64,000 nt of DNA, from the NCBI GenBank assembly GCA_000002445.1, contig CM000207.1, positions 672,001 through 736,000 of the forward strand. The letters are read 5' to 3'. This document shows, piece after piece, positions 38,026 to 58,060 of this stretch. The position numbers and the translations under genes are program-made. This DNA is from Trypanosoma brucei (taxonomy: Eukaryota). The notes beneath the pieces are model-generated. The model did not search any database. It was not told the origin of the DNA and was given only the letters and a program-made list of their open reading frames with translations. Each line of letters starts with the position of its first letter. The stretch's first letter is position 1.

Positions 38026-40140
38026 ATGAAAAAGAGGAGGCCAATACCCAATCCTACAAAGATCAGTTCCTACTTTTTCCAGCAGCTGGTAAGCCCAGGT
38101 GCAACAACTCCGGATGATAGGAAGGAGCGTGCCCAGTCCGAGCAAACGAAGCGGGCTGCCGCGTCGGTGCTAAGTGAGTCGTTTACACCAGAGGGCGTCG
38201 CTGCTTTCCTTCAGAGTAGGTCAGAAATTGAGCGACAGCACAGTGAAGCGCTAGAGGATGTGCTTGATGCTTGTTGGAAGCGTGTTGAGGACATAATCGA
38301 GCGAAATAAGGAGCGCCGTCGGGTTATAGAGGAGGACATTCCCCAAGTTGTTGCTCCCACAGGCACGTTCACCTTTTGGACACCCGAGGGCGTTGAACAA
38401 TACTACAGCCTGAAAACTTTGCCCGTTTTTGCCAGTGATGAGGAAGGCGTCAGAAGCGACAGCAATGGCTTCGGTACCGACAATAGCAACGCAATGAAAA
38501 GTGATAGAAATGGCCCTGCTGCCGCTGACCATGCAGTAATTTCGCCTCAGGGTCGCTCAGCGGAGGACAAAGTTGACGGAAACGCAGCGGCAGAGGGGGA
38601 CGGGAGGACTGATCCGGTTGCTGAATTTTCATCCCAAAGGGCATGTGGCAGGGCGCCCATTGTGTCGGGAGCCCACCATACGAAGGGGCGGAAATTGACG
38701 GACAAAGAACTTCTTGATGAATCGAAGGTCCCCCATTGTCTGCGTCGGTTGTTCGCCTCACTTCTTAGGCGTCGCAACGAATTTCCCAAATCAACAACAC
38801 TTCTATTTGATGCAATCCAGCGAACGCAGTCGGAGAGATTTCCTGAAATTGAAGCGGTGATCGAAGATGTACCCTTTTCAATGCCTCTTCATCGACCATT
38901 TAGATGCATCGCTGCCTTCGTGGCCCGGTCTTTCGCAGAGAACCCCAAGGGTGAAGCACCTGAGCAGGCATTTGCTGCGACTTTCAAAACGGTGAGCAAA
39001 GATTTGAAGACGGCATACGAGAAACTGCATGAACTAAAGGGTTATGTGCACCCTGTGGGTGAACGAACAGATCGGGCGGAAGTCATCTACAAAACCCTTT
39101 TGGGTGAGTTGCAGGGTCGGAAGAGTCTTCATGAAACCTACGGTATTGATATAGAAGCCATAATGAAAGCATCGGCAGTGGAGCTGAGCGTGATGGAGGG
39201 GGCTCTTAAAGAGTGTAATGAAACATCCCGGAGGTTGCTTGCCACCATTGAGGATCAGACCGCACAGTTCATAGCTGACGTGCACACCAGCCTTGATCGA
39301 CGAGAGGAGGCTATAGAGGAAATTGCCTCGTTCTACAAGCGGGATCGTGATCGCCTGCAGTCGTCATTGCAGAGGAAGATTTATCGTGCGAAGAAGAGTG
39401 AGGAACTTCAAGAAAAGTGCGCTCGACGTATTCGGGAGGTTACGAAGGAGCTTTACATTGAGCAGGTCAATTACGAGGAGCTGCTGCAGGAAATATTGGC
39501 AGAGAGTTTGCTGCTACAGCAGCTGGACAGCAGCTACACGCAGTTGTCAAGTTCGCTTAATAACGCAGCTTCCGTTCATCAGGAATCAAAGATAAGCTCT
39601 ATTAGGGAGGCGCTTCAGCGGTCGGAAGATGTTCGTGTGCATCTCATTGAACAATGTCAGTTCCACATAAACCGACTTAAAAAGGACGAGCACTATCGGC
39701 TCTGCCGCTTAGCCACAAACGCCAAGGATAATGCATTGTGCTGGTCTCGCTGCCTGAACGACCTTTCAACAATATATGAGACTCACTTTAACTCCCTAAA
39801 TGAGAAGTGCAGGGTCTCCACGCAAATGCGTTACCTTCTTTCGTACGAGAAAGATTGCGTTTCTCGTGACCTGAACCAAGTTCAAAAGGAAATGGAACAG
39901 TTAGATAGCAAATGGCACGAAATTTCCACTCTCCTGGAGGAACTCGGTGAACCAGTTCCACCACTTTCATTACTTGAAAAGGACCCCTCGTGTGGAGAGC
40001 TCCGCCACGCTTTGACCGCACTGGCATTAACTCGCCTTGTGCATGGAGAGTCTTCCCACCTTGTGCGCCCCGAACAGTGGAGAGAGCGAACTGTTGTGGC
40101 CACCGGTGACGGCAGTGCGACTGCGAATGATATGTCGTAG
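38026..40140 (+). CDS. Hypothetical coiled-coil protein, 704 aa
   Basis: ATG start; extended heptad-like regions in the C-terminal half. Confidence 0.5.
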   Translation: MKKRRPIPNPTKISSYFFQQLVSPGATTPDDRKERAQSEQTKRAAASVLSESFTPEGVAAFLQSRSEIERQHSEALEDVLDACWKRVEDIIERNKERRRVIEEDIPQVVAPTGTFTFWTPEGVEQYYSLKTLPVFASDEEGVRSDSNGFGTDNSNAMKSDRNGPAAADHAVISPQGRSAEDKVDGNAAAEGDGRTDPVAEFSSQRACGRAPIVSGAHHTKGRKLTDKELLDESKVPHCLRRLFASLLRRRNEFPKSTTLLFDAIQRTQSERFPEIEAVIEDVPFSMPLHRPFRCIAAFVARSFAENPKGEAPEQAFAATFKTVSKDLKTAYEKLHELKGYVHPVGERTDRAEVIYKTLLGELQGRKSLHETYGIDIEAIMKASAVELSVMEGALKECNETSRRLLATIEDQTAQFIADVHTSLDRREEAIEEIASFYKRDRDRLQSSLQRKIYRAKKSEELQEKCARRIREVTKELYIEQVNYEELLQEILAESLLLQQLDSSYTQLSSSLNNAASVHQESKISSIREALQRSEDVRVHLIEQCQFHINRLKKDEHYRLCRLATNAKDNALCWSRCLNDLSTIYETHFNSLNEKCRVSTQMRYLLSYEKDCVSRDLNQVQKEMEQLDSKWHEISTLLEELGEPVPPLSLLEKDPSCGELRHALTALALTRLVHGESSHLVRPEQWRERTVVATGDGSATANDMS

Positions 40141-40596
40141 ATCACTCATTTTGTTTGCTCACCCCCCTTTCCTTCACGTTTCCCCTGTTTCAGCTGTACA
40201 TCATATGTAAGCATTAGAGCATTATGGGATGCAGAGTGAGAAATTGGCAAAGGCTGCACAGCGGATGGATGTGTAAGTCAATGAACTTTCTCATGTTGCT
40301 TTTCTCGCTCACATCAACGCGTCGTTTCCCTCCTCCCTATCACAAATGTTTACTAATGGGATCACGTTGACGTTGGTTAACTGATGTCGCGCATTCATCG
40401 AAGCACTTCTCAATGGTGCACCATTCAACAAATGCTTTTGCTGTCGTGTTTGCTATTTTTGCTTGAGCCTTCTTGTTCCTTTCGTTAATCTCACTCTGTA
40501 AAACCCTTAAGTTGGACTCACGTTAAACAGGCAGTGATCTGAGCTATTGCTCCACGTAAGGGGAGAAGAATAAATCCCCCTTTTCACGCTGAATAC

Positions 40597-41553
40597 ATGG
40601 CTCCAGTAGTGTGGCCGTGCGCCCTTAACCCATCAAATCACATACTGGTGCAAGAGTTGCTGCTACACGCGTCATTAGGTCGTCACCGCCATTCCCTGAG
40701 GGACAGAAAGGACTTTTTTCACCTTGCTAGGCACATTTCCTGCCTCAAAGAACCTTGCAAATACCTCGTTTCTGCGCCACCAACCTCTCGTGGACCACTG
40801 TGGGCTCCTTGGCGAAGCACAGTCCCCCGGCAAATAGTTTTCAATCGTATACTCCGTCAGTGCACCGATACTTATACGCAATCATCCCATAAAGAAGACA
40901 AAGAAGACGAGGAGGGGAGACGCGTACCAGTGTTTTATGATGATGCCATTGCTCATTTGAACAGAATAGCAGAAGAACTGGGGCCACACGGATACAAAGT
41001 AACTCTGGTCGGAGCACTGCGACGCGGGTGCCCCGTTGCTTCCCGAGCTGAGTTCCTTTTGACGTACGATGATGACGATAGAATCAGGAAACATCGTGAC
41101 AACGACACCACTGTGTCCCACAGTGTTCATTTTGAGCGAGCGATACAGGGACTAAGGGCTTCCGGATACATCAAGCATCATAGGACAAAAAGAAAGATTG
41201 ATATTCACACAAAACAGTACATAACACTTGCTTCTAGGTCCCATTCACATCCAGAAACCCTCTCCACATCACGAGAGGAAAGACAGGTTTTGTCTATTAC
41301 CTGGTCAAAACCACAACAGTTTCACACGCGGCAGCTGTTCCTCACGGGCCCGAACCCATTCGTGGTGCACCTTGTGCTGCTGGCCCATGCGAAGGGCCTG
41401 GGACTGGATCCTTGCGGGTTGTACAAATCCCAATTAGGGTTTCGGGAGTCTGTGGCACTTGAATGTGAAAGGGACATCTTCGCTGCGTTGCAGTTGCCGT
41501 ACGTTGAGCCCATTCACCGCCATGCATACTGCCGCGTTCACAACCTGTTTTGA
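40597..41553 (+). CDS. DNA polymerase X family (pol beta-like) protein, 318 aa, with non-canonical catalytic residues
   Basis: ATG start. The C-terminus (ERDIFAALQLPYVEPIHRHA) matches pol beta [28 protein letters not shown]...AHAKGLGLD matches FTGS..F...RAHALEKGF, RKIDIH matches RRIDIR (Asp256), and ALRRG matches SFRRG. The GDMD carboxylates are replaced by SRAE. Confidence 0.65.
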   Translation: MAPVVWPCALNPSNHILVQELLLHASLGRHRHSLRDRKDFFHLARHISCLKEPCKYLVSAPPTSRGPLWAPWRSTVPRQIVFNRILRQCTDTYTQSSHKEDKEDEEGRRVPVFYDDAIAHLNRIAEELGPHGYKVTLVGALRRGCPVASRAEFLLTYDDDDRIRKHRDNDTTVSHSVHFERAIQGLRASGYIKHHRTKRKIDIHTKQYITLASRSHSHPETLSTSREERQVLSITWSKPQQFHTRQLFLTGPNPFVVHLVLLAHAKGLGLDPCGLYKSQLGFRESVALECERDIFAALQLPYVEPIHRHAYCRVHNLF

Positions 41554-41815
41554 GAGCGCCCGCGCCTTCCTTTTATTTGTTCTCCATGGGATATTGCTGT
41601 TCTTTAACTTCCTAACTGTATGGTTTTCTGTCGCATGTGTCGTCACAGACGCGCATCACTTTTTATACGACTAGATATGCCGCGTTACAGAGACCTATCG
41701 ATTGCCTGATTAAGTACTCTTGCAGGTGTTGCTTTGTCTTCTCCGCACTATTACTCATTCCCTTTTTCTTTACTGATTTTTTCTGGTATGAAGGCACTTC
41801 TATACACTAAGGGTG

Positions 41816-42424
41816 ATGTCCGCACAACCGCACCTCCGCAAGCTGCGTAAGCTCAAGCGCGCCAACCCGTCTCAGGAGGAGGAGGGCGTCGCGAGGGTGC
41901 TCTTTGAATTGGAAGGCTCCCACAAGACTCTCCGCGCGCAGTTGCCCCGCTTCCATATAAACACTGTTCGCACGTCGTCGAGTCCCCGTCACAAGAAGAC
42001 AGCTATGATCATTTTGTACCCGTTGCGTTTTATCATGCTTGTACGCAAGATTCAGCGAACGCTTACGGCAGAGCTCGAGAAGCGCTTCCCCGGAAACATT
42101 GTTGTGCTTGTTGCGCAGCGCAAGATAACGAAGCGACCGAATGATGTGTACAAGCTTCAGCAGGTGCAACGTTCCCGTACGAGCGTAGCGGTGTTTGAGA
42201 ATATCTTGAATGATCTTATATATCCGTGTGACGTGGTGGGCCGCCGTTGGCGTTACCGTACGGATGGGAGTAAGCTGATGAAAGTGTTCTTGGACGCCCG
42301 TGACCGCAAGAGGGTGGAGTCGAGACTTCCCCTTCTTGCCCACGTCTACAAGTTGTTGACGCACCGAACTGTCACCTTCGGGTTCATGTGGAACCCTAAG
42401 TTGCAGCAAGTGTCCTCCCGGTAG
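41816..42424 (+). CDS. RPS7: 40S ribosomal protein S7e, copy 1
   Basis: Full-length eukaryotic S7e-like sequence (NIVVLVAQRKI..., ...VFLDARDRKRVESRL...). Track start at 41813 is GTG immediately before ATG 41816. Confidence 0.85.
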   Translation: MSAQPHLRKLRKLKRANPSQEEEGVARVLFELEGSHKTLRAQLPRFHINTVRTSSSPRHKKTAMIILYPLRFIMLVRKIQRTLTAELEKRFPGNIVVLVAQRKITKRPNDVYKLQQVQRSRTSVAVFENILNDLIYPCDVVGRRWRYRTDGSKLMKVFLDARDRKRVESRLPLLAHVYKLLTHRTVTFGFMWNPKLQQVSSR

Positions 42425-42978
42425 ATGAGTTTCGCCCAGCTACTTTGAAGGTGCCATTATCAGTTTTTTGTTTTGATTTATTTTCACTACGCTGCCATCC
42501 TCGGTTGTGTAGTGCTAGAAAATGAAATGACACATGTCAGTACTGAAACTAGTGTAAGTTACAACCTCGAAGCTGCCTGTGTTTCCATGTTAGTCACCCC
42601 TTTGACATTTTCTTACCTTTTTGCTCATTAGTATTTTATGCTGGTGATAGACGCCCACTTTGGTGGTTCCTATGTGATGCAGCGAGTGAGATGAGGTGGC
42701 ATGCTATACTTCACTTCCGTGAGCTGCGTCACCACAGGTTCACCAACCCCTTCTCCACTGCGTGAGGATCGCGTGGTAAAAGCGTTTTCCGTGTTGGTGT
42801 CTTGTAGTAGAGTCATCCGAATGTGCCTCTCGCGGATAATGTGATTTATGTTTCCCACTGTTGCAGGCGGCTGCGAGTAGTCGGGTGCATCACAGATCAG
42901 CTTAGATTTCGCACAAGATCTGAGGCCCCGGAAGGTGTTTTCAAGCCTCTTCCTTATCGTCTTGGCGCTACGTTGTGG

Positions 42979-43143
42979 TTACTCCAATCGCATACCAACC
43001 AAGGCCTGAATGCCAGGATATCGAGCTTAGGAGCGAATATCGACAAGGCCAGACAGCGTGGCGAACAGCAGGTTGCGTTAAAGGAAGAGGAGTTAAGGGA
43101 TCTGCAGGGGAGACTTGAGAGTTTGATGAGGGATTTGGAGTGA
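42979..43143 (+). pseudogene. 3' fragment of the BRAP2-like gene, last 54 codons plus stop, copy 1
   Basis: Identical to 56268-56432, the C-terminus of the full BRAP2-like gene (LLQSHTNQGLNARISSLGANIDKARQRGEQQVALKEEELRDLQGRLESLMRDLE*). The upstream ORF extension starts with GTG at 42823 and has no ATG. Confidence 0.75.
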
Positions 43144-43543
43144 TGGTTTTCGGCGTCGTCTTGTCATCCCATCCCGCCTCCCTTCCGTATCATGCTGCGT
43201 CATTCCCCTTCGCCACTTATCAACACAGTCGTGTGCACTCCTACTGTTCTCACATCAGTCAGTGCAGCTTAGTTACCTCGTTTGGCTTACTTTGACTTAA
43301 GTACCTTTTTTTGTGCTCATTGCGGTTGCTGTATGACTGCCAGCTCTCAGATGTCTGGACTTTCCATTCTCTTTATGTTGACCCTACACACCTGCCCCAC
43401 ACTGCATTTCCCCCCACCGTTCCCTGTTTGCACCTTCCTGCTGTATGGGTGGTGTAAAATACCCATTAGCATTATAGCAGTTGGTGGCTTGTTAATAACT
43501 GAAGTTCGGATTACCGTGGCGAGTAAAGGTTTCCGGTGATATT

Positions 43544-44629
43544 ATGGTCGTCAAACGCCGTGGAAATGGCCGGTTAGGCAAACCTCCGACAGATACTGGA
43601 GTGAGTGAGAACTCTACCGGTGGAACCCCACCCCCGGAGTCTGCTTCTCAACGTGGCGGGGCGAAACAAACTACGGTTGCTTCCGCGATCAAGCAGCCCG
43701 CTTCGATGCCCGACGGCTCGTTGTCGCAGGATCGACGAAAGCGCCGCCGTAGGTTATCGGTGCCAGAGGAGGTGGCCCATGCCGTTGTGGAGGGGGAAGA
43801 AGCTACAGGTGCTGTAAGGGATGAAAGACTACCCGAAAATACTCGAGTTGTTGAACCTCAATTGAATGATCATGATGGTAAAGAGAGATACCCTCTGGGC
43901 GTTGTCCAGTTCCCAGAGGAGCAGCGCCCGTGGAGGAGCGCAAGGCGTAAAGCTGGGGTAGCTGAGGGAGGTAGTGACGAGGTTAACGCCGCACAGCTTC
44001 CTCCGACGGGCAACGCTGTGCCGCAGAAACCAACTAGGCGTTTAGGTAGAGCATCTGCCCCTCCGATACCACCTGTCGGTACTGTTGAACATGATTTGCA
44101 GACAACTGGTGGAACGTGTACGAGTGCTCCTATTGCGGGTGACCGCGCTTCCCGAACGTTTCAGGCGGCGGCGAGCCCCTCCGAAGATATTAAACAAAGG
44201 CCGCATAGAATTCCATTGATAATAGATAAGGGGCGTTTCAGTAAGCAAAAAGTCGAGGCTCCTCCCGGGACCGCAACCGTGGTGCCCATGGACACTGGAG
44301 AAAACCAGGCTGGCGTTTGTGAAGCAAACTCCGCACCACCAACTTCCTGTTCCCACCGTGGCGCCCAGCGCTTGGGGCATGGCCAACCTGCTGATGGCAC
44401 AAGTGGTGCTGTTGATAGTATAGAGGAGGGGCCCGGGCGCGGAATTGAGGAAGCCTCCGTGGACGCGCGACGTAGGAGGTTTATGCAGGTGCCGGTGAGC
44501 AGAATCTCGTTGTATACACGGCTTGCCGAGGGGGGTTTGGATGCTGCCGACCGCCCATTTGTCACATGTGTGGTAAAACATGCCCAATCGTCTGTTTCCG
44601 CATGGGTATCCGGGTTCTTGTCGCCTTGA
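43544..44629 (+). CDS. Hypothetical basic, low-complexity protein, 361 aa, copy 1
   Basis: ATG start. Rich in R/K/P/S/G. Duplicated at 50031-51116 with three amino-acid differences. Confidence 0.5.
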   Translation: MVVKRRGNGRLGKPPTDTGVSENSTGGTPPPESASQRGGAKQTTVASAIKQPASMPDGSLSQDRRKRRRRLSVPEEVAHAVVEGEEATGAVRDERLPENTRVVEPQLNDHDGKERYPLGVVQFPEEQRPWRSARRKAGVAEGGSDEVNAAQLPPTGNAVPQKPTRRLGRASAPPIPPVGTVEHDLQTTGGTCTSAPIAGDRASRTFQAAASPSEDIKQRPHRIPLIIDKGRFSKQKVEAPPGTATVVPMDTGENQAGVCEANSAPPTSCSHRGAQRLGHGQPADGTSGAVDSIEEGPGRGIEEASVDARRRRFMQVPVSRISLYTRLAEGGLDAADRPFVTCVVKHAQSSVSAWVSGFLSP

Positions 44630-45920
44630 TGTGAGTGATGCTTTTATTTTTTCTTTGGAGGTGTGCGAATTTCTGTTTCTTGAAACAGATACTGACCGAT
44701 GGAGGGTCGTTGTTTTTCTTAGTTGGCTGTGCTGCTGGTGAAAGCACATTGTGAATGGGATAAATGGGTGTGAGGGTTTTCTTTCTAAATTTCTGCTGGC
44801 GGTTTATCCCTCATATTGTTTGCCTGAACTGGAGTGAATACAGTTCTCTTTTTGATACGGCTTCCTTTGCCGGTTGAACGGGGACACGCCTTCTTATTGG
44901 TTCTGTCGTGTACGCTTTTTCAGTGTAGTATTGGAGGGACTAACAGTGTGAGGAGCGGTGCCGAACCCAGTTGAACGCCTGTCATTGTGTGTGATGCCTG
45001 TACAACCGTGTTTCGGTTGCTTTGATTGCTCGATTGGCTGTGCGGCAGCCGTTGTGAAGGTGATGTAATCCCTTCAGTTGATGTGGCTTCTGCAGGTTGT
45101 TTCTTCCGGTGCGCGGGAACGGCAGACATAAGTGGTATATGTTTGGCTAGATACCGGCACTACTCTATAGGTTTACTTTTACTCTACTTTTTTTTTGTGT
45201 GTGTGCTTCCACTCACTTTGGTGTTCTGTTGCTGAGGCGGTGTTGCAACTGTGTCAGTGAACAGTACGCCATCTACGGATAGCACTACCGGCAGTCGGTT
45301 GCCGCTGGCGGTTGCTCATGAGGAGGTTTGTATTTACCTGCCGGTGGGTTGGCTTCTTGATGGGAGGTTAACAGGCGTGGGTGCCTTGTATGGTATCAGA
45401 TATTTCTCTAGGATGAAGGTTATGCACCATTACCATACCGTGGAGTTCGCCGTAATAAGGTGAAGTCATTTGAGCAGTAGTTCCTTTTGCTGTCATCTCT
45501 TGGTATATTATTGCCAAAAATACCTGTGCTATTGCTGCTACGTTGTAACCATGTCCTCTTTTGTGTTCAGTAACGGGGGTAGTGACTGTGACGACATATT
45601 CCGAGGCCGCATCGAGTTGTGTTTGACATTTGCCCTCCGTGTCGTAGCTTATACAACCTTCGTGGGTGGTGGTGCACATGTTTGTGTGCCCTGCAACGTC
45701 GCCGTTCACTACTTCAATTTTTTTGTACCCACTTGCGGATGAAACTTTTAGTCGGTATGTTCCCTTCTGGAATGACAGAGGGGAAGGACTGGTGATGTGC
45801 CGGTCGTCCCTCATTGTTGGTCTTTTCTCTTCTTGAACACGTAAATGCAAGCAGTGTCATAGCTATATTTTGGGGTGAAGAAAGGGCGAGGTTCACCTTC
45901 ATTTGGTTGGATTGCTGGGT

Positions 45921-46535
45921 ATGTCTACATCCCGCATTACGTTGTCGTCACAGCACGATGCACTGATAATTGTGGATATGCAGAATGATTTCGTGCTTCC
46001 CGACGGTGCGCTCTCCGTAACTGGTGCCACTGAGATCATACCGATAATTAATCGCGTTGTCGGAGATCACCAGTTTCGTGCCGTTGTCGCATCGATGGAC
46101 TGGCACCCTCCTGGACACATGTCGTTCCGAAATGAAGATGGGACAGGGGGTCCATGGCCTCCCCATTGCGTACGGTCAACGACTGGTGCCCAACTTCATT
46201 CAGAGATGAAACAAGGAGAGATAACCCACCTTATTCACAAGGCGACATCTCTGGATTCTGAAAGTTACTCCGCCTTCAGCGATGACAGCGGTAAGACAAC
46301 CGGTCTGGCTGCAATGCTGCGCGCCATGGACGTGAGAAGGGTTTTTATGTGTGGCGTAGCTTCCGATTACTGTGTATACTTTACCTCACTACACGCTATC
46401 CAAGAGGAATTTACCGTTGTTGTGTTGGAGGACGCCGTTCGCCCCGTCGACCCTGTTGCCATGGAGAAGAAGCGAGCACACCTGGAAAAGGAGGGCGTAA
46501 TCTTTGCGCGAAGCACAGACCTTTCCAGCTTCTGA
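45921..46535 (+). CDS. PNC1: Nicotinamidase/pyrazinamidase (isochorismatase family), copy 1
   Basis: IIVDMQNDF catalytic Asp motif, CGVASDYCV nucleophile Cys motif, and length about 204 aa. Track start at 45903 is TTG; first ATG at 45921. Confidence 0.8.
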   Translation: MSTSRITLSSQHDALIIVDMQNDFVLPDGALSVTGATEIIPIINRVVGDHQFRAVVASMDWHPPGHMSFRNEDGTGGPWPPHCVRSTTGAQLHSEMKQGEITHLIHKATSLDSESYSAFSDDSGKTTGLAAMLRAMDVRRVFMCGVASDYCVYFTSLHAIQEEFTVVVLEDAVRPVDPVAMEKKRAHLEKEGVIFARSTDLSSF

Positions 46536-47806
46536 GTCGGAGGTGGCTTCTTCTAGTGGTTCCTCCAGAAGTGTGGGACCGCGTAGGTGTGCCTAAGTGA
46601 TGAACGACAGGATGGAATGTAATGTGCTAATAATATGGGGCTGGGTGGCGGTGGTGGTGGTGAGCATGTCAAGGCGTACAGTGAGGGCTAGGTATATGCA
46701 ATCACCACCGTTATCATTGATTCTCAAGTGCATATTCCCAATAGGGCCACACATGCGCTCATGTACGGTCTCCTAAGGTGTATGTATGTGTGCGTTAGGT
46801 GTGTATGAAGCGAGCAAAGAAGAGAGGGGGGTCGAAATGGATGGCTCGGCAAACGGGTCTGCCAACTATTTTCTTCCCTCTCCCTTGGTTCTATTGCCTT
46901 GGTCGTTTTGCCATTTGAAAGACCTCTTCTTTGTTTTTTCTTCCATTGCACCGCGCCCGTCCCCGACGCCACCGGGTTCCCATTTTTTTTGTAACTGAAA
47001 AGAGGGACGGTACTGACACTTGGGGCGAATAACGGACACTAAGCGAACCTCACCCCTGAGTCTTCCCCACAAGGTGTTGGTTGCCGCGCAACAGAAGAAA
47101 TGGCGGGGTAGTAAGTGATGTGCGCGCGTACATGCACGATCCTGCGCGGCATCCGAAATTAATGGGCGGCGAGCTTTTGCTTACGGTTGGCCCTTGACAT
47201 GTGCGTTCAAATGGTGATGCCCTTCCATCATTTGCCGCAGTAACTTTTTTCCAGTGCAAACTCACAAGACATGCATTTGGAACATATTGGCGCTGGGGAT
47301 GTCAGGTGCCAACAGGGGTACTCTGTTTAATTGACGGTCAATAGCAGACAGCGTTTGTGTGATCTCCCTTTACCAGGCTGCAGATCCGTAGGGGTTGCCG
47401 AGTGGGAAGCCATCCGTTACGTTCCTGTCCCATTCCTCTCTTCCTCACACATGATGGTCGCAGCCGCCTGTAGGTATAATGTATTACCTATGGGTACAGT
47501 GAGCATTTGTTTGGAATAAAATGCCTTTTGCGACCATACAACAACCTACGCGTAATCGGCTACACTTATGCCTGAGCTGGTCGTGCGTAGGTCGCGTGTC
47601 TTGAAGGATGGTGCCGGGTTGACATGGGCTTCGGACTCTCATGAAGAGTGTCGATTCTTGTGGTATGCGCTGGTGCTATTTATATTGGAGTGATGTCTAC
47701 TGTGTGGAATCACAGCATGATGGCTTTGTGTGACGATTACCCGCCATTGGATTGAAATGTACTGCTTTGAACAGGTTGTGTGGCTGTGCCCACTGTCATT
47801 AATCGT

Positions 47807-48040: not shown

Positions 48041-48302
48041 GAGCGCCCGCGCCTTCCTTTTATTTGTTCTCCATGGGATATTGCTGTTCTTTAACTTCCT
48101 AACTGTATGGTTTTCTGTCGCATGTGTCGTCACAGACGCGCATCATTTTTTATACGACTAGATATGCCGCGTTACAGAGACCTATCGATTGCCTGATTAA
48201 GTACTCTTGCAGGTGTTGCTTTGTCTTCTCCGCACTATTACTCATTCCCTTTTTCTTTACTGATTTTTTCTGGTATGAAGGCACTTCTATACACTAAGGG
48301 TG

Positions 48303-48911
48303 ATGTCCGCACAACCGCACCTCCGCAAGCTGCGTAAGCTCAAGCGCGCCAACCCGTCTCAGGAGGAGGAGAGCGTCGCGAGGGTGCTCTTTGAATTGGA
48401 AGGCTCCCACAAGACTCTCCGCGCGCAGTTGCCCCGCTTCCATATAAACACTGTTCGCACGTCGTCGAGTCCCCGTCACAAGAAGACAGCTATGATCATT
48501 TTGTACCCGTTGCGTTTTATCATGCTTGTACGCAAGATTCAGCGAACGCTTACGGCAGAGCTCGAGAAGCGCTTCCCCGGAAACATTGTTGTGCTTGTTG
48601 CGCAGCGCAAGATAACGAAGCGACCGAATGATGTGTACAAGCTTCAGCAGGTGCAACGTTCCCGTACGAGCGTAGCGGTGTTTGAGAATATCTTGAATGA
48701 TCTTATATATCCGTGTGACGTGGTGGGCCGCCGTTGGCGTTACCGTACGGATGGGAGTAAGCTGATGAAAGTGTTCTTGGACGCCCGTGACCGCAAGAGG
48801 GTGGAGTCGAGACTTCCCCTTCTTGCCCACGTCTACAAGTTGTTGACGCACCGAACTGTCACCTTCGGGTTCATGTGGAACCCTAAGTTGCAGCAAGTGT
48901 CCTCCCGGTAG
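48303..48911 (+). CDS. RPS7: 40S ribosomal protein S7e, copy 2
   Basis: Identical to copy 1 except one codon (EEEGVARV versus EEESVARV). Confidence 0.85.
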   Translation: MSAQPHLRKLRKLKRANPSQEEESVARVLFELEGSHKTLRAQLPRFHINTVRTSSSPRHKKTAMIILYPLRFIMLVRKIQRTLTAELEKRFPGNIVVLVAQRKITKRPNDVYKLQQVQRSRTSVAVFENILNDLIYPCDVVGRRWRYRTDGSKLMKVFLDARDRKRVESRLPLLAHVYKLLTHRTVTFGFMWNPKLQQVSSR

Positions 48912-49465
48912 ATGAGTTTCGCCCAGCTACTTTGAAGGTGCCATTATCAGTTTTTTGTTTTGATTTATTTTCACTACGCTGCCATCCTCGGTTGTGTAGT
49001 GCTAGAAAATGAAATGACGCATGTCAGTACTGAAACTAGTGTAAGTTACAACCTCGAAGCTGCCTGTGTTTCCATGTTAGTCACCCCTTTGACATTTTCT
49101 TACCTTTTTGCTCATTAGTATTTTATGCTGGTGATAGACGCCCACTTTGGTGGTTCCTATGTGATGCAGCGAGTGAGATGAGGTGGCATGCTATACTTCA
49201 CTTCCGTGAGCTGCGTCACCACAGGTTCACCAACCCCTTCTCCACTGCGTGAGGATCGCGTGGTAAAAGCGTTTTCCGTGTTGGTGTCTTGTAGTAGAGT
49301 CATCCGAATGTGCCTCTCGCGGATAATGTGATTTATGTTTCCCACTGTTGCAGGCGGCTGCGAGTAGTCGGGTGCATCACAGATCAGCTTAGATTTCGCA
49401 CAAGATCTGAGGCCCCGGAAGGTGTTTTCAAGCCTCTTCCTTATCGTCTTGGCGCTACGTTGTGG

Positions 49466-49630
49466 TTACTCCAATCGCATACCAACCAAGGCCTGAATGC
49501 CAGGATATCGAGCTTAGGAGCGAATATCGACAAGGCCAGACAGCGTGGCGAACAGCAGGTTGCGTTAAAGGAAGAGGAGTTAAGGGATCTGCAGGGGAGA
49601 CTTGAGAGTTTGATGAGGGATTTGGAGTGA
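49466..49630 (+). pseudogene. 3' fragment of the BRAP2-like gene, copy 2
   Basis: Same as 42979-43143, offset by 6,487 bp. Confidence 0.75.
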
Positions 49631-50030
49631 TGTTTTTCGGCGTCGTCTTGTCATCCCATCCCGCCTCCCTTCCGTATCATGCTGCGTCATTCCCCTTCGC
49701 CACTTATCAACACAGTCGTGTGCACTCCTACTGTTCTCACATCAGTCAGTGCAGCTTAGTTACCTCGTTTGGCTTACTTTGACTTAAGTACCTTTTTTTG
49801 TGCTCATTGCGGTTGCTGTATGACTGCCAGCTCTCAGATGTCTGGACTTTCCATTCTCTTTATGTTGACCCTACACACCTGCCCCACACTGCATTTCCCC
49901 CCACCGTTCCCTGTTTGCACCTTCCTGCTGTATGGGTGGTGTAAAATACCCATTAGCATTATAGCAGTTGGTGGCTTGTTAATAACTGAAGTTCGGATTA
50001 CCGTGGCGAGTAAAGGTTTCCGGTGATATT

Positions 50031-51116
50031 ATGGTCGTCAAACGCCGTGGAAATGGCCGGTTAGGCAAACCTCCGACAGATACTGGAGTGAGTGAGAACT
50101 CTACCGGTGGAACCCCACCCCCGGAGTCTGCTTCTCAACGTGGCGGGGCGAAACAAACTACGGTTGCTTCCGCGATCAAGCAGCCCGCTTCGATGCCCGA
50201 CGGCTCGTTGTCGCAGGATCGACGAAAGCGCCGCCGTAGGTTATCGGTGCCAGAGGAGGTGGCCCATGCCGTTGTGGAGGGGGAAGAAGCTACAGGTGCT
50301 GTAAGGGATGAAAGACTACCCGAAAATACTCAAGTTGTTGAACCTCAATTGAATGATCATGATGGTAAAGAGAGATACCCTCTGGGCGTTGTCCAGTTCC
50401 CAGAGGAGCAGCGCCCGTGGAGGAGCGCAAGGCGTAAAGCTGGGGTAGCTGAGGGAGGTAGTGACGAGGTTAACGCCGCACAGCTTCCTCCGACGGGCAA
50501 CGCTGTGCCGCAGAAACCAACTAGGCGTTTAGGTAGAGCATCTGCCCCTCCGATACCACCTGTCAGTACTGTTGAACATGATTTGCAGACAACTGGTGGA
50601 ACGTGTACGAGTGCTCCTATTGCGGGTGACCGCGCTTCCCGAACGTTTCAGGCGGCGGCGAGCCCCTCCGAAGATATTAAACAAAGGCCGCATAGAATTC
50701 CATTGATAATAGATAAGGGGCGTTTCAGTAAGCAAAAAGTCGAGGCTCCTCCCGGGACCGCAACCGTGGTGCCCATGGACACTGGAGAAAACCAGACTGG
50801 CGTTTGTGAAGCAAACTCCGCACCACCAACTTCCTGTTCCCACCGTGGCGCCCAGCGCTTGGGGCATGGCCAACCTGCTGATGGCACAAGTGGTGCTGTT
50901 GATAGTATAGAGGAGGGGCCCGGGCGCGGAATTGAGGAAGCCTCCGTGGACGCGCGACGTAGGAGGTTTATGCAGGTGCCGGTGAGCAGAATCTCGTTGT
51001 ATACACGGCTTGCCGAGGGGGGTTTGGATGCTGCCGACCGCCCATTTGTCACATGTGTGGTAAAACATGCCCAATCGTCTGTTTCCGCCTGGGTATCCGG
51101 GTTCTTGTCGCCTTGA
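50031..51116 (+). CDS. Hypothetical basic low-complexity protein, 361 aa, copy 2
   Basis: Offset by 6,487 bp from copy 1. Differs by R/Q, G/S and A/T substitutions. Confidence 0.5.
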   Translation: MVVKRRGNGRLGKPPTDTGVSENSTGGTPPPESASQRGGAKQTTVASAIKQPASMPDGSLSQDRRKRRRRLSVPEEVAHAVVEGEEATGAVRDERLPENTQVVEPQLNDHDGKERYPLGVVQFPEEQRPWRSARRKAGVAEGGSDEVNAAQLPPTGNAVPQKPTRRLGRASAPPIPPVSTVEHDLQTTGGTCTSAPIAGDRASRTFQAAASPSEDIKQRPHRIPLIIDKGRFSKQKVEAPPGTATVVPMDTGENQTGVCEANSAPPTSCSHRGAQRLGHGQPADGTSGAVDSIEEGPGRGIEEASVDARRRRFMQVPVSRISLYTRLAEGGLDAADRPFVTCVVKHAQSSVSAWVSGFLSP

Positions 51117-52407: not shown

Positions 52408-53022
52408 ATGTCTACATCCCGCATTACGTTGTCGTCACAGCACGATGCACTGATAATTGTGGATATGCAGAATGATTTCGTGCTTCCCGACGGTGCGCTC
52501 TCCGTAACTGGTGCCACTGAGATCATACCGATAATTAATCGCGTTGTCGGAGATCACCAGTTTCGTGCCGTTGTCGCATCGATGGACTGGCACCCTCCTG
52601 GACACATGTCGTTCCGAAATGAAGATGGGACAGGGGGTCCATGGCCTCCCCATTGCGTACGGTCAACGACTGGTGCCCAACTTCATTCAGAGATGAAACA
52701 AGGAGAGATAACCCACCTTATTCACAAGGCGACATCTCTGGATTCTGAAAGTTACTCCGCCTTCAGCGATGACAGCGGTAAGACAACCGGTCTGGCTGCA
52801 ATGCTGCGCGCCATGGACGTGAGAAGGGTTTTTATGTGTGGCGTAGCTTCCGATTACTGTGTATACTTTACCTCACTACACGCTATCCAAGAGGAATTTA
52901 CCGTTGTTGTGTTGGAGGACGCCGTTCGCCCCGTCGACCCTGTTGCCATGGAGAAGAAGCGAGCACACCTGGAAAAGGAGGGCGTAATCTTTGCGCGAAG
53001 CACAGACCTTTCCAGCTTCTGA
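52408..53022 (+). CDS. PNC1: Nicotinamidase/pyrazinamidase, copy 2
   Basis: Protein identical to copy 1. Confidence 0.8.
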   Translation: MSTSRITLSSQHDALIIVDMQNDFVLPDGALSVTGATEIIPIINRVVGDHQFRAVVASMDWHPPGHMSFRNEDGTGGPWPPHCVRSTTGAQLHSEMKQGEITHLIHKATSLDSESYSAFSDDSGKTTGLAAMLRAMDVRRVFMCGVASDYCVYFTSLHAIQEEFTVVVLEDAVRPVDPVAMEKKRAHLEKEGVIFARSTDLSSF

Positions 53023-54293: not shown

Positions 54294-54527
54294 ATTTACA
54301 CGCGGCAGCTGTTCTTCACGGGCCCGAACCCATTCGTGATGCACCTTGTGCTGCTAACCCATGCGAAGGGCCTGGGACTGGATCCTTGCGGGTTGTACAA
54401 ATCCCAATTAGGGTTTCGGGAGTCTGTGGCACTTGAATGTGAAAGGGACATCTTCGCTGCGTTGCAGTTGCCGTACGTTGAGCCCATTCACCGCCATGCA
54501 TACTGCCGCGTTCACAACCTGTTTTGA
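54294..54527 (+). pseudogene. 3' fragment of the Pol X-like gene, copy 3; reading frame intact but GTG-initiated only
   Basis: Track ORF 54267-54527 starts with GTG; the C-terminal 78 codons are identical to the Pol X-like gene. Confidence 0.7.
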
Positions 54528-54752
54528 GAGCGCCCGCGCCTTCCTTTTATTTGTTCTCCATGGGATATTGCTGTTCTTTAACTTCCTAACTGTATGGTTT
54601 TCTGTCGCATGTGTCGTCACAGACGCGCATCATTTTTTATACGACTAGATATGCCGCGTTACAGAGACCTATCGATTGCCTGATTAAGTACTCTTGCAGG
54701 TGTTGCTTTGTCTTCTCCGCACTATTACTCATTCCCTTTTTCTTTACTGATT
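54294..54752. repeat. Partial third repeat unit, 5' part (Pol X 3' fragment plus downstream 225 bp)
   Basis: Identical to 41320-41778 and 47807-48265. Sequence diverges from the RPS7-containing units at 54753. Confidence 0.85.
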
Positions 54753-54776
54753 GGTGTTGATAGTATATTTTTTGAA

Positions 54777-56432
54777 ATGAGTGTCACCGGCTTCGGTGAT
54801 GTTGTTGTATCTTTTGATGCGGAAGGTGTTGTAGTTGTTGGGCTAACTTATGAGCGTTCAAATGCGACACAGTGGTTGCTGCTCCCGGAAATTCCCGTTG
54901 AAGTCCCTCTTGTTAAGGTTCTTCGTGATCTTGAGGAATCTGGTGCTTCTCGACAACGGTCACCTGGTCGAATGAGGGGAGAAGGAGTTAAAGGAGATGT
55001 TTGTTTGCCAGACAGTGAAGTTGGATCACCTTGTAACGCGTGCGGTGTTAATAACATTCGTAGTGATTGTTGCATTTCTGTTGCTCGTGTGGGGCACATT
55101 CCGGAACGAAATCGCGCATACTGTTTGCTTTTGGAGTTGTCATCTTCTTCTGATGCCGCTGATGTGCAAAGAGATCTGCTGCACGTCGAGTGGGCTAATG
55201 GGCCCTTGTGTGCACCGCAGTTTTTGCAGTCCGTCGGCCGTATAATGAGGGTGGAGCATGAAGGGCGTGATGCCGCATGCGTGAGCAACTGCGCGGGTTG
55301 GCGGACACAAGTGTCTACGGACAATGCGGAAGATGTTTGCCTACGTGTCCTTTGCAGTGTGTCGTGCGGTGTTGATGGGGCGTCATCTCGGCGGCAGTTG
55401 GAAAGTGAAAAGGAGATATCTAGCGTTGCGCTCCGGAGAGACGCTCCTCTAGCACCGATAGAAGAGTTTTGCCCCATCTGCCGTGAGGAAATCGCATCTG
55501 GAAGAACGTGCGTTGTTACTATGTGCACCCACGTCTTCCACCTTGTTTGCCTCATGAAGCACTTAGAAGATGTTAGTTCATATTGCCCTCTTTGTCGTTT
55601 TTCGATGTCGTCTCTTGAAACTAAGTGCAACGCGTGTGGAACGTGCCAGGACTTGTGGAGTTGTTTAGTTTGCGGTTGGGTGGGATGTGGTAAGGGGCGG
55701 CACGGACATAGCATACGGCACTTCCACAGCACAGGGCACTCGTGTGCCGTGCAGAATAGCACTTCACGCATATGGAACTATCGCGCCAGCACATTTCTCC
55801 ACCACCAACTAGCTATGGAATTGGGTTACGAAGACGACGCAAGGGCGGAGCGTGCTGCAGCGCAGGAGGAGGGCAGGTCGGCCCTCTCTGTTCGTCACAG
55901 CGGGGAAAAACCCAGGGTCAGTGCTTCATCCTATTGGCGCAGTAGGTGGTGGTGGGACGAAAAGGAAGAGGAAGCTGCACAAGAGCTCAATGGCGACTAT
56001 GTGCGGGAGTATTATCTCCGTGTAATGGAGGAACTCATGCAGGAACAGGCGGACTATTTTGAGGGGCGTACAATGGTGGAGGGAGAGAATGCGGCTGTAC
56101 CCATCGGGACATGGAAGAAGCTGCAAAGCGCAGAACGGCGTCAACGGCGTAGTCTTGCTTCGAGGTACATTGCTGGTTTGCGCCGTATTGCGCTACACAG
56201 CCAGATGGCCGTCAACAATTTTGTGAAGCAGGAGGTCTTATGGAGGGATTCGTTGCGTGAAGAGTTATTACTCCAATCGCATACCAACCAAGGCCTGAAT
56301 GCCAGGATATCGAGCTTAGGAGCGAATATCGACAAGGCCAGACAGCGTGGCGAACAGCAGGTTGCGTTAAAGGAAGAGGAGTTAAGGGATCTGCAGGGGA
56401 GACTTGAGAGTTTGATGAGGGATTTGGAGTGA
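54777..56432 (+). CDS. BRAP2/ETP1-like E3 ligase: RING-H2 + ZnF-UBP + C-terminal coiled coil
   Basis: RING-H2 region: CPICREEIASGRTCVVTMCTHVFHLVCLMKHLEDVSSYCPLCRF. ZnF-UBP region: CNACGTCQDLWSCLVCGWVGCGKGRHGHSIRHFHSTGHSCAV. Track start at 54708 is TTG inside the shared repeat; the first ATG is at 54777, after the repeat boundary. Confidence 0.75.
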   Translation: MSVTGFGDVVVSFDAEGVVVVGLTYERSNATQWLLLPEIPVEVPLVKVLRDLEESGASRQRSPGRMRGEGVKGDVCLPDSEVGSPCNACGVNNIRSDCCISVARVGHIPERNRAYCLLLELSSSSDAADVQRDLLHVEWANGPLCAPQFLQSVGRIMRVEHEGRDAACVSNCAGWRTQVSTDNAEDVCLRVLCSVSCGVDGASSRRQLESEKEISSVALRRDAPLAPIEEFCPICREEIASGRTCVVTMCTHVFHLVCLMKHLEDVSSYCPLCRFSMSSLETKCNACGTCQDLWSCLVCGWVGCGKGRHGHSIRHFHSTGHSCAVQNSTSRIWNYRASTFLHHQLAMELGYEDDARAERAAAQEEGRSALSVRHSGEKPRVSASSYWRSRWWWDEKEEEAAQELNGDYVREYYLRVMEELMQEQADYFEGRTMVEGENAAVPIGTWKKLQSAERRQRRSLASRYIAGLRRIALHSQMAVNNFVKQEVLWRDSLREELLLQSHTNQGLNARISSLGANIDKARQRGEQQVALKEEELRDLQGRLESLMRDLE

Positions 56433-56978
56433 TGTTTTTCGGCGTCGTCTTGTCATCCCATCCCGCCCCCCTTCCGTATCATGCTGCGTCATTCCCCTTC
56501 GCCACTTATCAACACAGTCGTGTGCACTCCTACTGTTCTCACATCAGTCAGTGCAGCTTAGTTACCTCGTTTGGCTTACTTTGACTTAAGTACCTTTTTT
56601 TGTGCTCATTGCGGTTGCTGTATGACTGCCAGCTCTCAGATGTCTGGACTTTCCATTCTCTTTATGTTGACCCTACACACCTGCCCCACACTGCATTTCC
56701 CCCCACCGCTCCCTGTTTGCACCTTCCTGCTGTATGGGTGGTGTAAAATACCCATTAGCATTATAGCAGTTGGTGGCTTGTTAATAACTGAAGTTCGGAT
56801 TACCGTGGCGAGTAAAGGTTTCCGGTGATATTATGGTCGTCAAACGCCGTGGAAATGGCCGGTTAGGCAAACCTCCGACAGATACTGGAGTGAGTGAGAA
56901 CTCTACCGGTGGAACCCCACCCCCGGAGTCTGCTTCTCAACGTGGCGGGGCGAAACAAACTACGGTTGCTTCCGCGAT
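56268..56978. repeat. Partial third repeat unit, 3' part (BRAP2 3' end through the first 49 codons of the 361-aa gene)
   Basis: Identical to 42979-43689 and 49466-50176. Homology ends at 56978. Confidence 0.85.
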
Positions 56979-57018
56979 GGAGGTGCTTCCGTTTGTTTTC
57001 CTTTGGTGCCTTGATTAA
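56833..57018 (+). pseudogene. Truncated third copy of the 361-aa gene (first 49 codons, then unrelated sequence and stop)
   Basis: MVVKRRGNGRLGKPPTDTGVSENSTGGTPPPESASQRGGAKQTTVASA is identical to copies 1 and 2; it then diverges (MEVLPFVFLWCLD*). Confidence 0.7.
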
Positions 57019-58060
57019 GTGGGAACAGAAGGGCACATGCTGGTCGTCAGTATTTTTTTGTGAGGCCAAATTAAATTTAGTGTTTTTGTTCAGTGCTTTT
57101 TTTTTTGACTTGGAAGGTATTCAAAATTATGCTGGGGAGGTGCTTTTGTCCCTCTGCAGGAAAGGAGGGTGCTGACGCTTTTTGTATATTATGCGCTTGC
57201 TTGCTTTTGCCCACGTGGCTTGTGTTGGGTGAATAAATTGAATATCAATATTTGTGGCGTAATATCAACGTTTATGTGCCCTTTTTTATTGTTTTGTGAA
57301 GGAGCATATGACTCATTCCCCCCTCGCGTCTCCCCACCGTTGCATTGCCTTTCCAGTGTGTCGGTGACTGAAGCGGAGGTTTTGTCCTGTCTTTTATAAA
57401 GTTATTCCTGGTGAGGACTGGGTGGATTTCCGGTGCCTGTGTGCAATACCTATTTTCTGATGCGGGGTAGTGGATGAGGTTTCCACGCCAGCGGGCAGTT
57501 TGACTTTTCTTTTGCAATGTGTATCGATTGGTTATTGATGTGTTTTGCCTTGGTTGTTTTCTAGTTCTGAGAGCGTTATGCATTTTCCATACTTTTCGTT
57601 TCCTGAGGTGTGCACTTGCTGACCTATTGTGGCAACATGCGAAGCATCATGTTGAAAAGGTGTCATCGTTGAGCGTCGTATTTATTCGGTTCCCACCTGG
57701 AGCAAGATGACGAGTGCCCTCGTGGACTTACGGTGTGACAGAAGTGGTTGTTGCCGCGTGAGAAATACTTTGTGTGGAAATTGGTGTGAAGGTTGCCCTC
57801 GTAATGCTTAAATTGGCGTTTTGGGAAGATGGTAGTATCAATTTGTTTGTGTTATCTGTTAATGCCATTTTTTCTTTTTTGTGCGTCAAAGGTATCCGTT
57901 AGCGTCCCAACTGCCCCTTTTTTGTTAGCGATTTCCCCGCAGCAGGCTGTATGAAGATGGTTGGAAGCAACTGTTCCCCGTTCGTTGTTTTGGTCAACCT
58001 CTGCTCCTTTTATTTTTCTTCTTTAAACAAGTTGTTACGTGGTAGAATACGTGCACTGAT

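What the first reader, a model, noticed from the sequence alone, without database searches (positions are those of the whole stretch)
41779..42978. RPS7 cassette occupies the position of the BRAP2-like gene body in two repeat units, leaving a 54-codon BRAP2 3' remnant
In unit 3, sequence shared with units 1 and 2 runs to 54752 and then continues into the full BRAP2-like gene (54753-56267 is unique). Homology with units 1 and 2 resumes at 56268, the last 54 codons of BRAP2. In units 1 and 2 that 1,515-bp BRAP2 interval is replaced by a 1,200-bp segment (41779-42978) carrying RPS7 and its downstream region. Units 1 and 2 therefore look derived from a BRAP2-containing ancestor by replacement or insertion. 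The remnant fragment has no ATG (its ORF starts at GTG 42823) but retains the coiled-coil coding sequence and the BRAP2 3' UTR. The downstream 361-aa gene may thus be processed using the BRAP2-derived upstream region.
Basis: seen in the sequence. Interest (0 to 1): 0.6.

Follow-up and report, generated by a model that had tools for sequence, protein, structure and literature searches.

The report
Gene-order shuffle scars in trypanosome array
In Trypanosoma brucei a block of neighbouring genes was duplicated and then trimmed, which moved one gene (BRAP2) downstream and left dead fragments of three genes; this is an ordinary genome rearrangement, not an inserted ribosomal-protein cassette.

Summary
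The layout is polB-a-R-c-d | a-R-c-d | a-B-c-Z. Here a is 458 bp (polB 3' end plus spacer). R is 1,200 bp (RPS7 plus 554 bp downstream). c is 711 bp (last 54 BRAP2 codons, a 400-bp spacer and the first 146 bp of hyp361). d holds the rest of hyp361 and nicotinamidase. B is 1,515 bp (BRAP2 body).

The window is T. brucei chromosome 9. T. cruzi, T. theileri and T. grayi all have polB-RPS7-BRAP2-hyp, then nicotinamidase and the large gene where the locus reaches that far. T. vivax and T. congolense keep BRAP2-hyp-nicotinamidase. So RPS7 is native at this spot and no donor locus was found. The 54-codon fragment is a true BRAP2 remnant. Unit 3 is equally derived: it carries a polB 3' remnant upstream and a hyp361 5' stub downstream.

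Best explanation: a Trypanozoon-specific duplication of the block with complementary losses, or one templated insertion plus one deletion. This was followed by tandem duplication of the 6,487-bp unit and gene conversion.

T. b. gambiense has one unit with identical junctions. The two-copy array is already catalogued (Jackson et al. 2010). Interest is low.

The parts
40597..41553 (+). Intact polB-thumb-domain gene (318 aa). Its last ~77 codons lie inside repeat segment a1.
   Evidence: Pfam DNA_pol_B_thumb, E=4.5e-13. Positional orthologue in T. cruzi, T. theileri and T. grayi. tblastn with the T. cruzi protein.
41321..41778 (+). Segment a1 (458 bp): polB 3' end plus 225-bp spacer, including a polypyrimidine tract at 41732-41774. 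This is the native upstream region of RPS7.
41779..42978 (+). The downstream region is presumably the left part of the native RPS7-BRAP2 spacer.
   Evidence: RPS7 sits directly upstream of BRAP2 in outgroups.
42979..43689 (+). Segment c1 (711 bp): BRAP2 3' remnant (last 54 codons plus stop, 42979-43143), native BRAP2-hyp361 spacer (43144-43543) and the first 146 bp of hyp361.
43544..44629 (+). hyp361 copy 1. A fast-evolving gene with a conserved C-terminal motif. It is the positional orthologue of the 270-328-aa gene that follows BRAP2 in other trypanosomes.
   Evidence: Alignment A1. tblastn. Only Trypanozoon hits by sequence search.
45921..46535 (+). Nicotinamidase (isochorismatase family), copy 1.
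   Evidence: Pfam Isochorismatase, E=1.2e-23. Homologues named nicotinamidase. Paralogues Tb927.9.3970 and Tb927.9.4040 (PMC10994559).
47808..48265 (+). Segment a2: polB 3' remnant (about 75 codons, no start) plus spacer.
   Evidence: tblastn with T. cruzi polB aa 238-312 hits 47813-48037..
48266..49465 (+). Segment R2: RPS7 copy 2 (48303-48911) plus downstream region.
49466..50176 (+). Segment c2: second BRAP2 3' remnant, spacer and hyp361 5' end.
50031..51116 (+). hyp361 copy 2.
52408..53022 (+). Nicotinamidase copy 2.
   Evidence: (ORF 52390-53022), by identity with copy 1.
54295..54752 (+). Segment a3: polB 3' remnant plus the RPS7-type upstream spacer. It is now fused 24 bp upstream of the BRAP2 ATG, a novel junction.
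54753..56267 (+). Segment B: 24 bp of leader plus BRAP2 codons 1-497. It occurs once in the window.
54777..56432 (+). Intact BRAP2-like gene (551 aa; RING-H2, zf-UBP and a C-terminal helical tail).
   Evidence: Pfam zf-UBP E=8.6e-17 and zf-RING_2 E=9.1e-09. Orthologues named BRCA1-associated protein.
56268..56978 (+). Segment c3: functional BRAP2 3' end plus 3' UTR/spacer plus hyp361 5' stub (56833-56978, 49 codons). The stub then runs 12 codons into unique sequence before a stop.
56979..58060 (+). Z head: unique sequence after the c3|Z junction, upstream of the 1,314-aa gene (58061-62005). That gene is the ancestral downstream neighbour of nicotinamidase.
   Evidence: Synteny.

Best explanation
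This is a lineage-specific (Trypanozoon) local rearrangement of a conserved gene row, and its scars are still readable.

**Ancestral order.** polB-thumb, RPS7 (1-2 copies), BRAP2, hyp (~300 aa), nicotinamidase, large (~1,300 aa) gene.

**Duplication in the T. brucei lineage.** Extra copies of [BRAP2 3' end, hyp361, nicotinamidase] and of [polB 3' end plus RPS7 upstream spacer] came to lie between RPS7 and BRAP2. Two routes could produce this:
- (i) Tandem duplication of the whole block from the polB 3' end to beyond nicotinamidase. Complementary deletions followed: BRAP2 body lost from the first copy, RPS7 and hyp361-nicotinamidase lost from the last copy.
- (ii) One templated insertion of copies [c d]+[a] at a single point of the RPS7-BRAP2 spacer, followed by deletion of the original hyp361-nicotinamidase.

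**Result.** polB-a-RPS7-c-hyp361-PNC1-a-BRAP2-c-Z. Three dead fragments remain: BRAP2 3' (54 codons), polB 3' (~77 codons) and hyp361 5' (49 codons).

**Later events.** The 6,487-bp unit (a-R-c-d) was duplicated once more by unequal crossing-over between the repeated a or c segments. This gives two copies of RPS7, hyp361 and nicotinamidase in some strains. Gene conversion keeps the a and c copies nearly identical.

**Functional consequence (inferred).** Every intact gene keeps its coding sequence and 3' region. BRAP2 is now preceded by the polypyrimidine tract that natively serves RPS7. The BRAP2 remnant is a non-coding scar inside the RPS7-hyp361 spacer.
For: **Shown: identity of the organism**
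- The BRAP2 protein is 100% identical (rounded; two residues differ) to that of T. b. equiperdum chromosome 9.

**Shown: ancestral order**
- T. cruzi L002, T. theileri L004 and T. grayi L005 all have Dymeclin-hyp700-polB-RPS7(x1-2)-BRAP2-hyp270-280, and then, where the locus reaches that far (T. cruzi, T. theileri), (MFS)-isochorismatase-large gene.
- T. vivax L003 has BRAP2-hyp303-isochorismatase-large gene.
- T. congolense contig L006 has the last 133 BRAP2 codons (100% identical to TCIL3000_9_1280), then hyp328, then nicotinamidase.

**Shown: the remnants are real**
- The BRAP2 C-terminal 54 aa are conserved across orthologues.
- The polB remnants are detected by tblastn with the T. cruzi protein.
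- hyp361 is an intact gene with a conserved C-terminal motif.

**Shown: age and copy number**
- T. b. gambiense has a single unit with identical junctions a-R-c-d-a-B-c-Z. The shuffle therefore predates subspecies divergence.
- The second unit is a later, polymorphic duplication. T. b. equiperdum has two units. Jackson et al. 2010 (PMC2854126, Table 1a) list RPS7/hypothetical/nicotinamidase as x2 in T. b. brucei and single in T. b. gambiense.

**Shown: concerted evolution**
- Eight strain-specific variants are shared by all or nearly all c copies of a strain.

**Shown: no donor**
- The exact RPS7 protein occurs only downstream of polB in three assemblies.

**Inferred: processing signals**
- The shared polyY tract at 41732-41774 / 54706-54748 is followed by a first AG at 41792 (RPS7) or 54762 (BRAP2).
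Against: - The exact path cannot be resolved. Route (i) needs four events. If no spacer sequence was lost, it also needs two deletions to share one breakpoint in the RPS7-BRAP2 spacer.
- Route (ii) needs a complex template-switch event, for which there is no direct evidence.
- No microhomology is visible at any of the four novel junctions.
- Intergenic sequence of T. congolense, T. vivax and T. cruzi is not alignable to T. brucei. Contiguity of xL (42425-42978) and xR (54753-54776) in the ancestor is therefore untested.
- The T. congolense contig starts inside BRAP2. The full polB-RPS7-BRAP2 stretch of that species was not seen.
- The single unit in T. b. gambiense could be an assembly collapse. 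The authors themselves warn that assembled copy numbers can be arbitrary.
- No expression data were examined.
Confidence: 0.85

Rival explanations
1. First reader's model. An RPS7 cassette from another locus was inserted into, or replaced, the BRAP2 body in an array of BRAP2-containing units. Unit 3 would then be the ancestral type.
For: In a pure within-window comparison, R (1,200 bp) and B (1,515 bp) occupy the same slot between a and c. The BRAP2 remnant in units 1 and 2 is genuine.
Against: - RPS7 sits between polB and BRAP2 in T. cruzi, T. theileri and T. grayi.
- a1-R1 follows the intact polB gene, as in the outgroups.
- No other locus carries the exact RPS7 protein in three Trypanozoon assemblies.
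- R has no poly(A) tail or target-site duplication at its ends.
- Unit 3 carries a polB pseudo-fragment and a hyp361 stub, so it is itself derived.
Confidence: 0.03
2. Reverse polarity. polB-RPS7-hyp361-PNC1 is ancestral, and BRAP2 was inserted (transposed) downstream of nicotinamidase in T. brucei. The 54-codon fragment would be produced by gene conversion from BRAP2 into the RPS7-hyp361 spacer.
For: Gene conversion among c copies is active. BRAP2 in T. brucei is flanked on both sides by duplicated segments (a3, c3).
Against: - All five other trypanosome species examined have BRAP2 directly upstream of the hyp361 orthologue.
- The c segment (BRAP2 3' end, spacer, hyp361 5' end) is therefore a native contiguous piece in units 1 and 2, not a converted patch.
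Confidence: 0.02
3. Assembly artefact. The a3-B and c3-Z junctions, or the second unit, come from mis-joined or collapsed repeats.
For: Repeats of 6.5 kb at 99.7% identity are hard to assemble. T. equiperdum OVI contig L014 breaks 586 bp after RPS7. Copy number differs between assemblies.
Against: Identical junctions occur in three independent assemblies from different projects: the window, FN554972.1 and CM010680.1. Strain-specific SNPs argue against copying between assemblies. Only the copy number (1 vs 2 units) remains open to artefact.
Confidence: 0.03

Closest known systems
T. brucei chromosome 9 segmental duplication 'Ribosomal protein S7 / hypothetical protein / nicotinamidase' (Tbg972.9.1930-1950; Jackson et al. 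2010, PLoS Negl Trop Dis 4:e658, Table 1a)
   Same: Same locus, same three-gene unit. Two copies in T. b. brucei and one in the T. b. gambiense assembly.
   Different: In the passages read, the paper lists the array only as a copy-number difference, with a unit length of 6,350 bp. It does not mention the BRAP2, polB or hyp361 fragments there. It also does not mention that BRAP2 changed position relative to other trypanosomes. The full text was not read.
Tandem gene arrays of T. brucei with concerted evolution (Jackson 2007, BMC Evol Biol 7:54)
   Same: Head-to-tail units inside a polycistronic transcription unit. Near-identical copies are homogenised by recombination. A dosage increase without individual promoters is the proposed advantage.
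   Different: Most arrays described there have more than 3 copies of single genes. This one is a two-copy, three-gene unit whose end units carry truncated neighbours.
Duplication followed by reciprocal (complementary) gene loss, as described for segmental and whole-genome duplicates (general knowledge, not tested against a specific reference)
   Same: After duplication of a block, each gene survives in only one of the copies. This changes the apparent gene order and leaves pseudogene relics.
   Different: Here the scale is about 7 kb within one transcription unit. For RPS7 and nicotinamidase no relic survives in the copy that lost them. A one-step templated insertion is an equally parsimonious route.

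Membership tests
Tandem segmental duplication / tandem gene array (T. brucei type) | Head-to-tail repeat units of near-identical sequence on one strand | tested here: met
   41320-48265 vs 47808-54752: 99.7% over 6,946 bp, period 6,487 bp.
Tandem segmental duplication / tandem gene array (T. brucei type) | Copy number differs between strains or subspecies | tested here: met
   One unit in T. b. gambiense DAL972. Two units in T. b. equiperdum and the window. Also in PMC2854126 Table 1a. Caveat: assembly collapse is possible.
Tandem segmental duplication / tandem gene array (T. brucei type) | Concerted evolution (paralogous copies within a genome more alike than orthologous copies between genomes) | tested here: met
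   Eight strain-specific variants shared by all or nearly all c copies of a strain.
   RPS7 lies between polB and BRAP2 in T. cruzi, T. theileri and T. grayi.
   The exact-protein look-up finds RPS7 only at this locus in three Trypanozoon assemblies. Limitation: it detects identical proteins only.
   No A-run or flanking direct repeat at 41779 or 42978.
Block duplication with complementary loss | Relics of each lost gene in the copy that lost it | tested here: inconclusive
   Relics are present for BRAP2 (units 1 and 2), polB (units 2 and 3) and hyp361 (unit 3). No relic of RPS7 or nicotinamidase is found in unit 3.
Ribosomal protein eS7 (Pfam PF01251) | Full-length match above the gathering score | tested here: met
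   202.6 bits against a cut-off of 33.5, covering profile positions 2-182 of 182. 84% identical to T. cruzi RPS7.
BRAP2 / BRCA1-associated protein (RING-H2 + zf-UBP + C-terminal coiled coil) | RING-H2 and zf-UBP domains in this order | tested here: met
   zf-RING_2 at aa 232-274 and zf-UBP at aa 284-344. Orthologues named BRCA1-associated protein by NCBI.
BRAP2 / BRCA1-associated protein (RING-H2 + zf-UBP + C-terminal coiled coil) | N-terminal BRAP2 domain (PF07576) and C-terminal coiled coil | tested here: inconclusive
   PF07576 was not reported for the T. brucei protein at E<=0.01. It is listed only for a distant Candida hit. The coiled coil was not computed.

The most novel reading that the evidence does not exclude
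The rearrangement rewired expression. BRAP2 would now be trans-spliced under the strong polypyrimidine tract that natively serves the highly expressed RPS7 gene. The BRAP2 3' remnant would be trans-spliced and polyadenylated as a separate non-coding RNA, or would extend the RPS7 3' UTR. The repeated a and c segments would act as recombination substrates that let T. brucei strains tune RPS7 and nicotinamidase dosage.
Probability: 0.2. Interest if true: 0.35.

Novelty: new member of a known kind. Interest (0 to 1): 0.2.

Why it matters
It gives a clean, fully reconstructible example of how gene order changes inside a trypanosome polycistronic unit. Trypanosomatid synteny is otherwise very stable. 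It also explains three small ORF fragments (BRAP2 3', polB 3', hyp361 5') that could be mis-annotated as genes. It flags the 458-bp and 711-bp repeats as the likely substrates for copy-number change of RPS7 and nicotinamidase. Finally, it warns that RNAi or CRISPR reagents against the BRAP2 3' end or 3' UTR will also match two or more other sites. It does not reveal a new kind of element or mechanism.

Tried and rejected
- **Exact-protein look-ups.** Look-ups of the window's BRAP2 and RPS7 copy 1 found nothing. The window strain differs by 1-4 residues from the deposited proteins. Copy 2 of RPS7 worked.
- **T. congolense BRAP2.** P0002 is not in the contig collection. The nicotinamidase orthologue P0015 gave a 4.5-kb contig instead.
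- **hyp361 homology search.** It found only Trypanozoon sequences. Orthology had to be shown by position plus alignment of the C-terminal motif.
- **Outgroup intergenic DNA.** I tried aligning T. vivax, T. congolense and T. cruzi spacers to the T. brucei spacers (xL, xR, d tail, Z head). The aim was to test whether breakpoints coincide. No similarity was found at E<=0.1.
- **Structured RNAs.** An Rfam scan of 40000-58500 gave no match at E<=0.1. There are no tRNAs in the window.
- **MFS transporter relic.** T. theileri and T. grayi have an MFS transporter between hyp and nicotinamidase. No relic of it was found in T. brucei.
- **Microhomology.** None was found at the four novel junctions.
- **Corrected reading.** An early reading that a2 and a3 carry a 1-bp deletion was wrong. 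Homology simply starts at 41321, with one substitution.
- **Literature.** Searches for BRAP2 in trypanosomes found nothing relevant.

Full report
**Observation**

The region reads polB | a1 R1 c1 d1 | a2 R2 c2 d2 | a3 B c3 | Z.

| Segment | Coordinates | Content |
|---|---|---|
| a (458 bp) | 41321-41778, 47808-48265, 54295-54752 | Last ~77 codons of the upstream polB-thumb gene (40597-41553) plus 225 bp of spacer |
| R (1,200 bp) | 41779-42978, 48266-49465 | 37-bp leader, RPS7 (41816-42424) and 554 bp downstream |
| c (711 bp) | 42979-43689, 49466-50176, 56268-56978 | Last 54 BRAP2 codons, 400-bp BRAP2-hyp361 spacer and first 146 bp of the hyp361 ORF |
| d (4,118 bp) | 43690-47807 and its copy | Rest of hyp361, and a nicotinamidase gene |
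| B (1,515 bp) | 54753-56267 | 24-bp leader plus BRAP2 codons 1-497 |
| Z | from 56979 | Unique sequence leading to a 1,314-aa gene |

- Units 1 and 2 are 99.7% identical over 6.9 kb. The c copies differ at 1-3 positions.
- Pfam confirms Ribosomal_S7e, DNA_pol_B_thumb, Isochorismatase and RING plus zf-UBP for the respective ORFs.
- The remnant ORF (GTG 42823 to 43143) is in frame with the BRAP2 tail.

**Organism and independent assemblies**

- The BRAP2 protein is 100% identical (rounded; two residues differ) to that of T. brucei equiperdum chromosome 9.
- The same a-R-c-d-a-B-c-Z junctions are present in T. b. gambiense DAL972 (FN554972.1, one unit) and in T. b. equiperdum (CM010680.1, two units).
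- The structure is therefore real and predates the divergence of the T. brucei subspecies. Only the unit number (1 or 2) varies, or may be affected by assembly collapse.

**Polarity from synteny**

| Species (locus) | Gene order seen |
|---|---|
| T. cruzi (L002) | Dymeclin - hyp~700 - polB-thumb - RPS7 x2 - BRAP2 - hyp277 - isochorismatase - large gene |
| T. theileri (L004) | Dymeclin - hyp~700 - polB-thumb - RPS7 x2 - BRAP2 - hyp270 - MFS - isochorismatase - large gene |
| T. grayi (L005) | Dymeclin - hyp~700 - polB-thumb - RPS7 x1 - BRAP2 - hyp280 - MFS (locus ends here) |
| T. vivax (L003) | BRAP2 - hyp303 - isochorismatase - large gene |
| T. congolense (L006) | Last 133 BRAP2 codons (100% identical to TCIL3000_9_1280) - hyp328 - nicotinamidase |

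- RPS7 is therefore native immediately upstream of BRAP2, and BRAP2 is native immediately upstream of the hyp361 orthologue.
- The T. brucei order (RPS7 - hyp361 - nicotinamidase - BRAP2) is derived and specific to Trypanozoon.
- The exact RPS7 protein occurs only at this locus in three Trypanozoon assemblies. No donor locus is indicated.

**What the fragments are**

- The 54 BRAP2 tail residues are conserved in all orthologues. The copies in units 1 and 2 are truncated relics of BRAP2.
- tblastn with T. cruzi polB (aa 238-312) hits 47813-48037 and 54300-54524. So a2 and a3 are relics of polB.
- hyp361 has a conserved C-terminal motif shared with the positional orthologues. It is intact in units 1 and 2.
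- In c3 only the first 49 codons of hyp361 survive. The frame stops 12 codons into Z.
- Unit 3 is therefore no more ancestral than units 1 and 2. Relative to the ancestor there are four novel junctions: xL|c, d|a, a|xR-B and c|Z.

**Mechanism**

Two routes fit the data.

- Route (i) is tandem duplication of the block [a R x B c d], followed by three deletions: BRAP2 body from copy 1, RPS7 from copy 2, and hyp361-nicotinamidase from copy 2.
- Route (ii) is a single replicative template-switch insertion of copies of [c d] and [a] at one point of the RPS7-BRAP2 spacer, followed by deletion of the original hyp361-nicotinamidase.

Some observations lean towards route (ii), but none is decisive.

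- Route (ii) needs fewer events.
- The retained spacer parts (554 bp plus 24 bp) already exceed the whole spacer of other species (237-327 bp; one search failed, sequences).
- When joined, the two parts form a plausible polyY-AG-short-UTR acceptor for BRAP2.
- Against this, outgroup intergenic DNA is unalignable, and no microhomology marks the junctions.
- The choice between routes therefore remains open.

Afterwards the 6,487-bp unit duplicated by unequal exchange. Gene conversion homogenised the repeats: eight strain-specific variants are shared by all or nearly all c copies of a strain. In the window strain, a2 and a3 share five changes absent from a1.

**Function (inferred)**

- All intact genes keep their coding and 3' regions.
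- The polypyrimidine tract at 41732-41774 is repeated at 54706-54748. It is followed by the first AG at 41792 (22 nt before the RPS7 ATG) and at 54762 (13 nt before the BRAP2 ATG).
- BRAP2 is therefore predicted to be trans-spliced under RPS7's native tract.
- The BRAP2 remnant has no ATG-initiated ORF of note and is best regarded as a scar.
- The duplication of the unit doubles RPS7, hyp361 and nicotinamidase dosage. T. cruzi and T. theileri also carry two RPS7 copies, but as adjacent ~0.9-kb repeats.

**Comparison with what is known**

- Jackson et al. 2010 (PMC2854126, Table 1a) already list this locus. Their entry is Tbg972.9.1930-1950: RPS7, hypothetical protein and nicotinamidase, a unit of 6,350 bp, two copies in T. 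b. brucei.
- A 2024 paper names the nicotinamidase paralogues Tb927.9.3970 and Tb927.9.4040 (PMC10994559).
- The array itself is therefore known.
- I did not find the relics or the BRAP2 relocation described in the literature searched. They are, however, typical by-products of segmental duplication.

**Verdict**

- The best explanation is a lineage-specific duplication-and-loss shuffle, held with confidence about 0.85. The sub-route is unresolved.
- Novelty: a new, well-resolved example of a known kind of event at an already catalogued array.
- Interest: 0.2.

Noticed in passing
window 20776-22335 (+): A 519-aa ORF with a strong reverse-transcriptase domain (Pfam RVT_1, E=4.8e-43). It is probably part of an ingi-type non-LTR retrotransposon, about 19 kb upstream of the array. 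It is not at any of the rearrangement breakpoints.
   Followed up: partly
window 23983-24351 and 26820-27188: A 369-bp direct repeat pair (99.2% identical) flanks a 2.5-kb segment that contains a WD40-repeat gene (25688-26809). This may be another small segmental duplication scar, just downstream of the RT element.
   Followed up: no
window 62001-64000: There is an abrupt drop to 37.6% G+C. ORFs there translate as poly-F/L/K/N, so the sequence is low-complexity and rich in pyrimidine/purine runs. This lies after the 1,314-aa gene and may be a long intergenic or transcription-unit boundary region.
   Followed up: no
window 44630-45902; L004 13494-14774; L005 12865-14157; L002 13418-14383: T. 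theileri and T. grayi have an MFS transporter gene between the hyp gene and nicotinamidase. T. cruzi retains only a 31%-identical stretch with no called gene. T. brucei has no detectable relic. This looks like an independent gene loss in the same gene row.
   Followed up: partly
window 41885 vs 48372 (RPS7 codon 24): The two RPS7 copies of the window differ by one residue (G24 in copy 1, S24 in copy 2). S24 is the state in T. b. gambiense and T. b. equiperdum.
   Followed up: yes
window 58061-62005 (+): The 1,314-aa downstream gene carries a P-loop kinase-like segment (AAA_18/AAA_17, weak). It is 42-46% identical to the T. cruzi and T. vivax positional orthologues over about 1,100 aa. Its function was not examined.
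   Followed up: no
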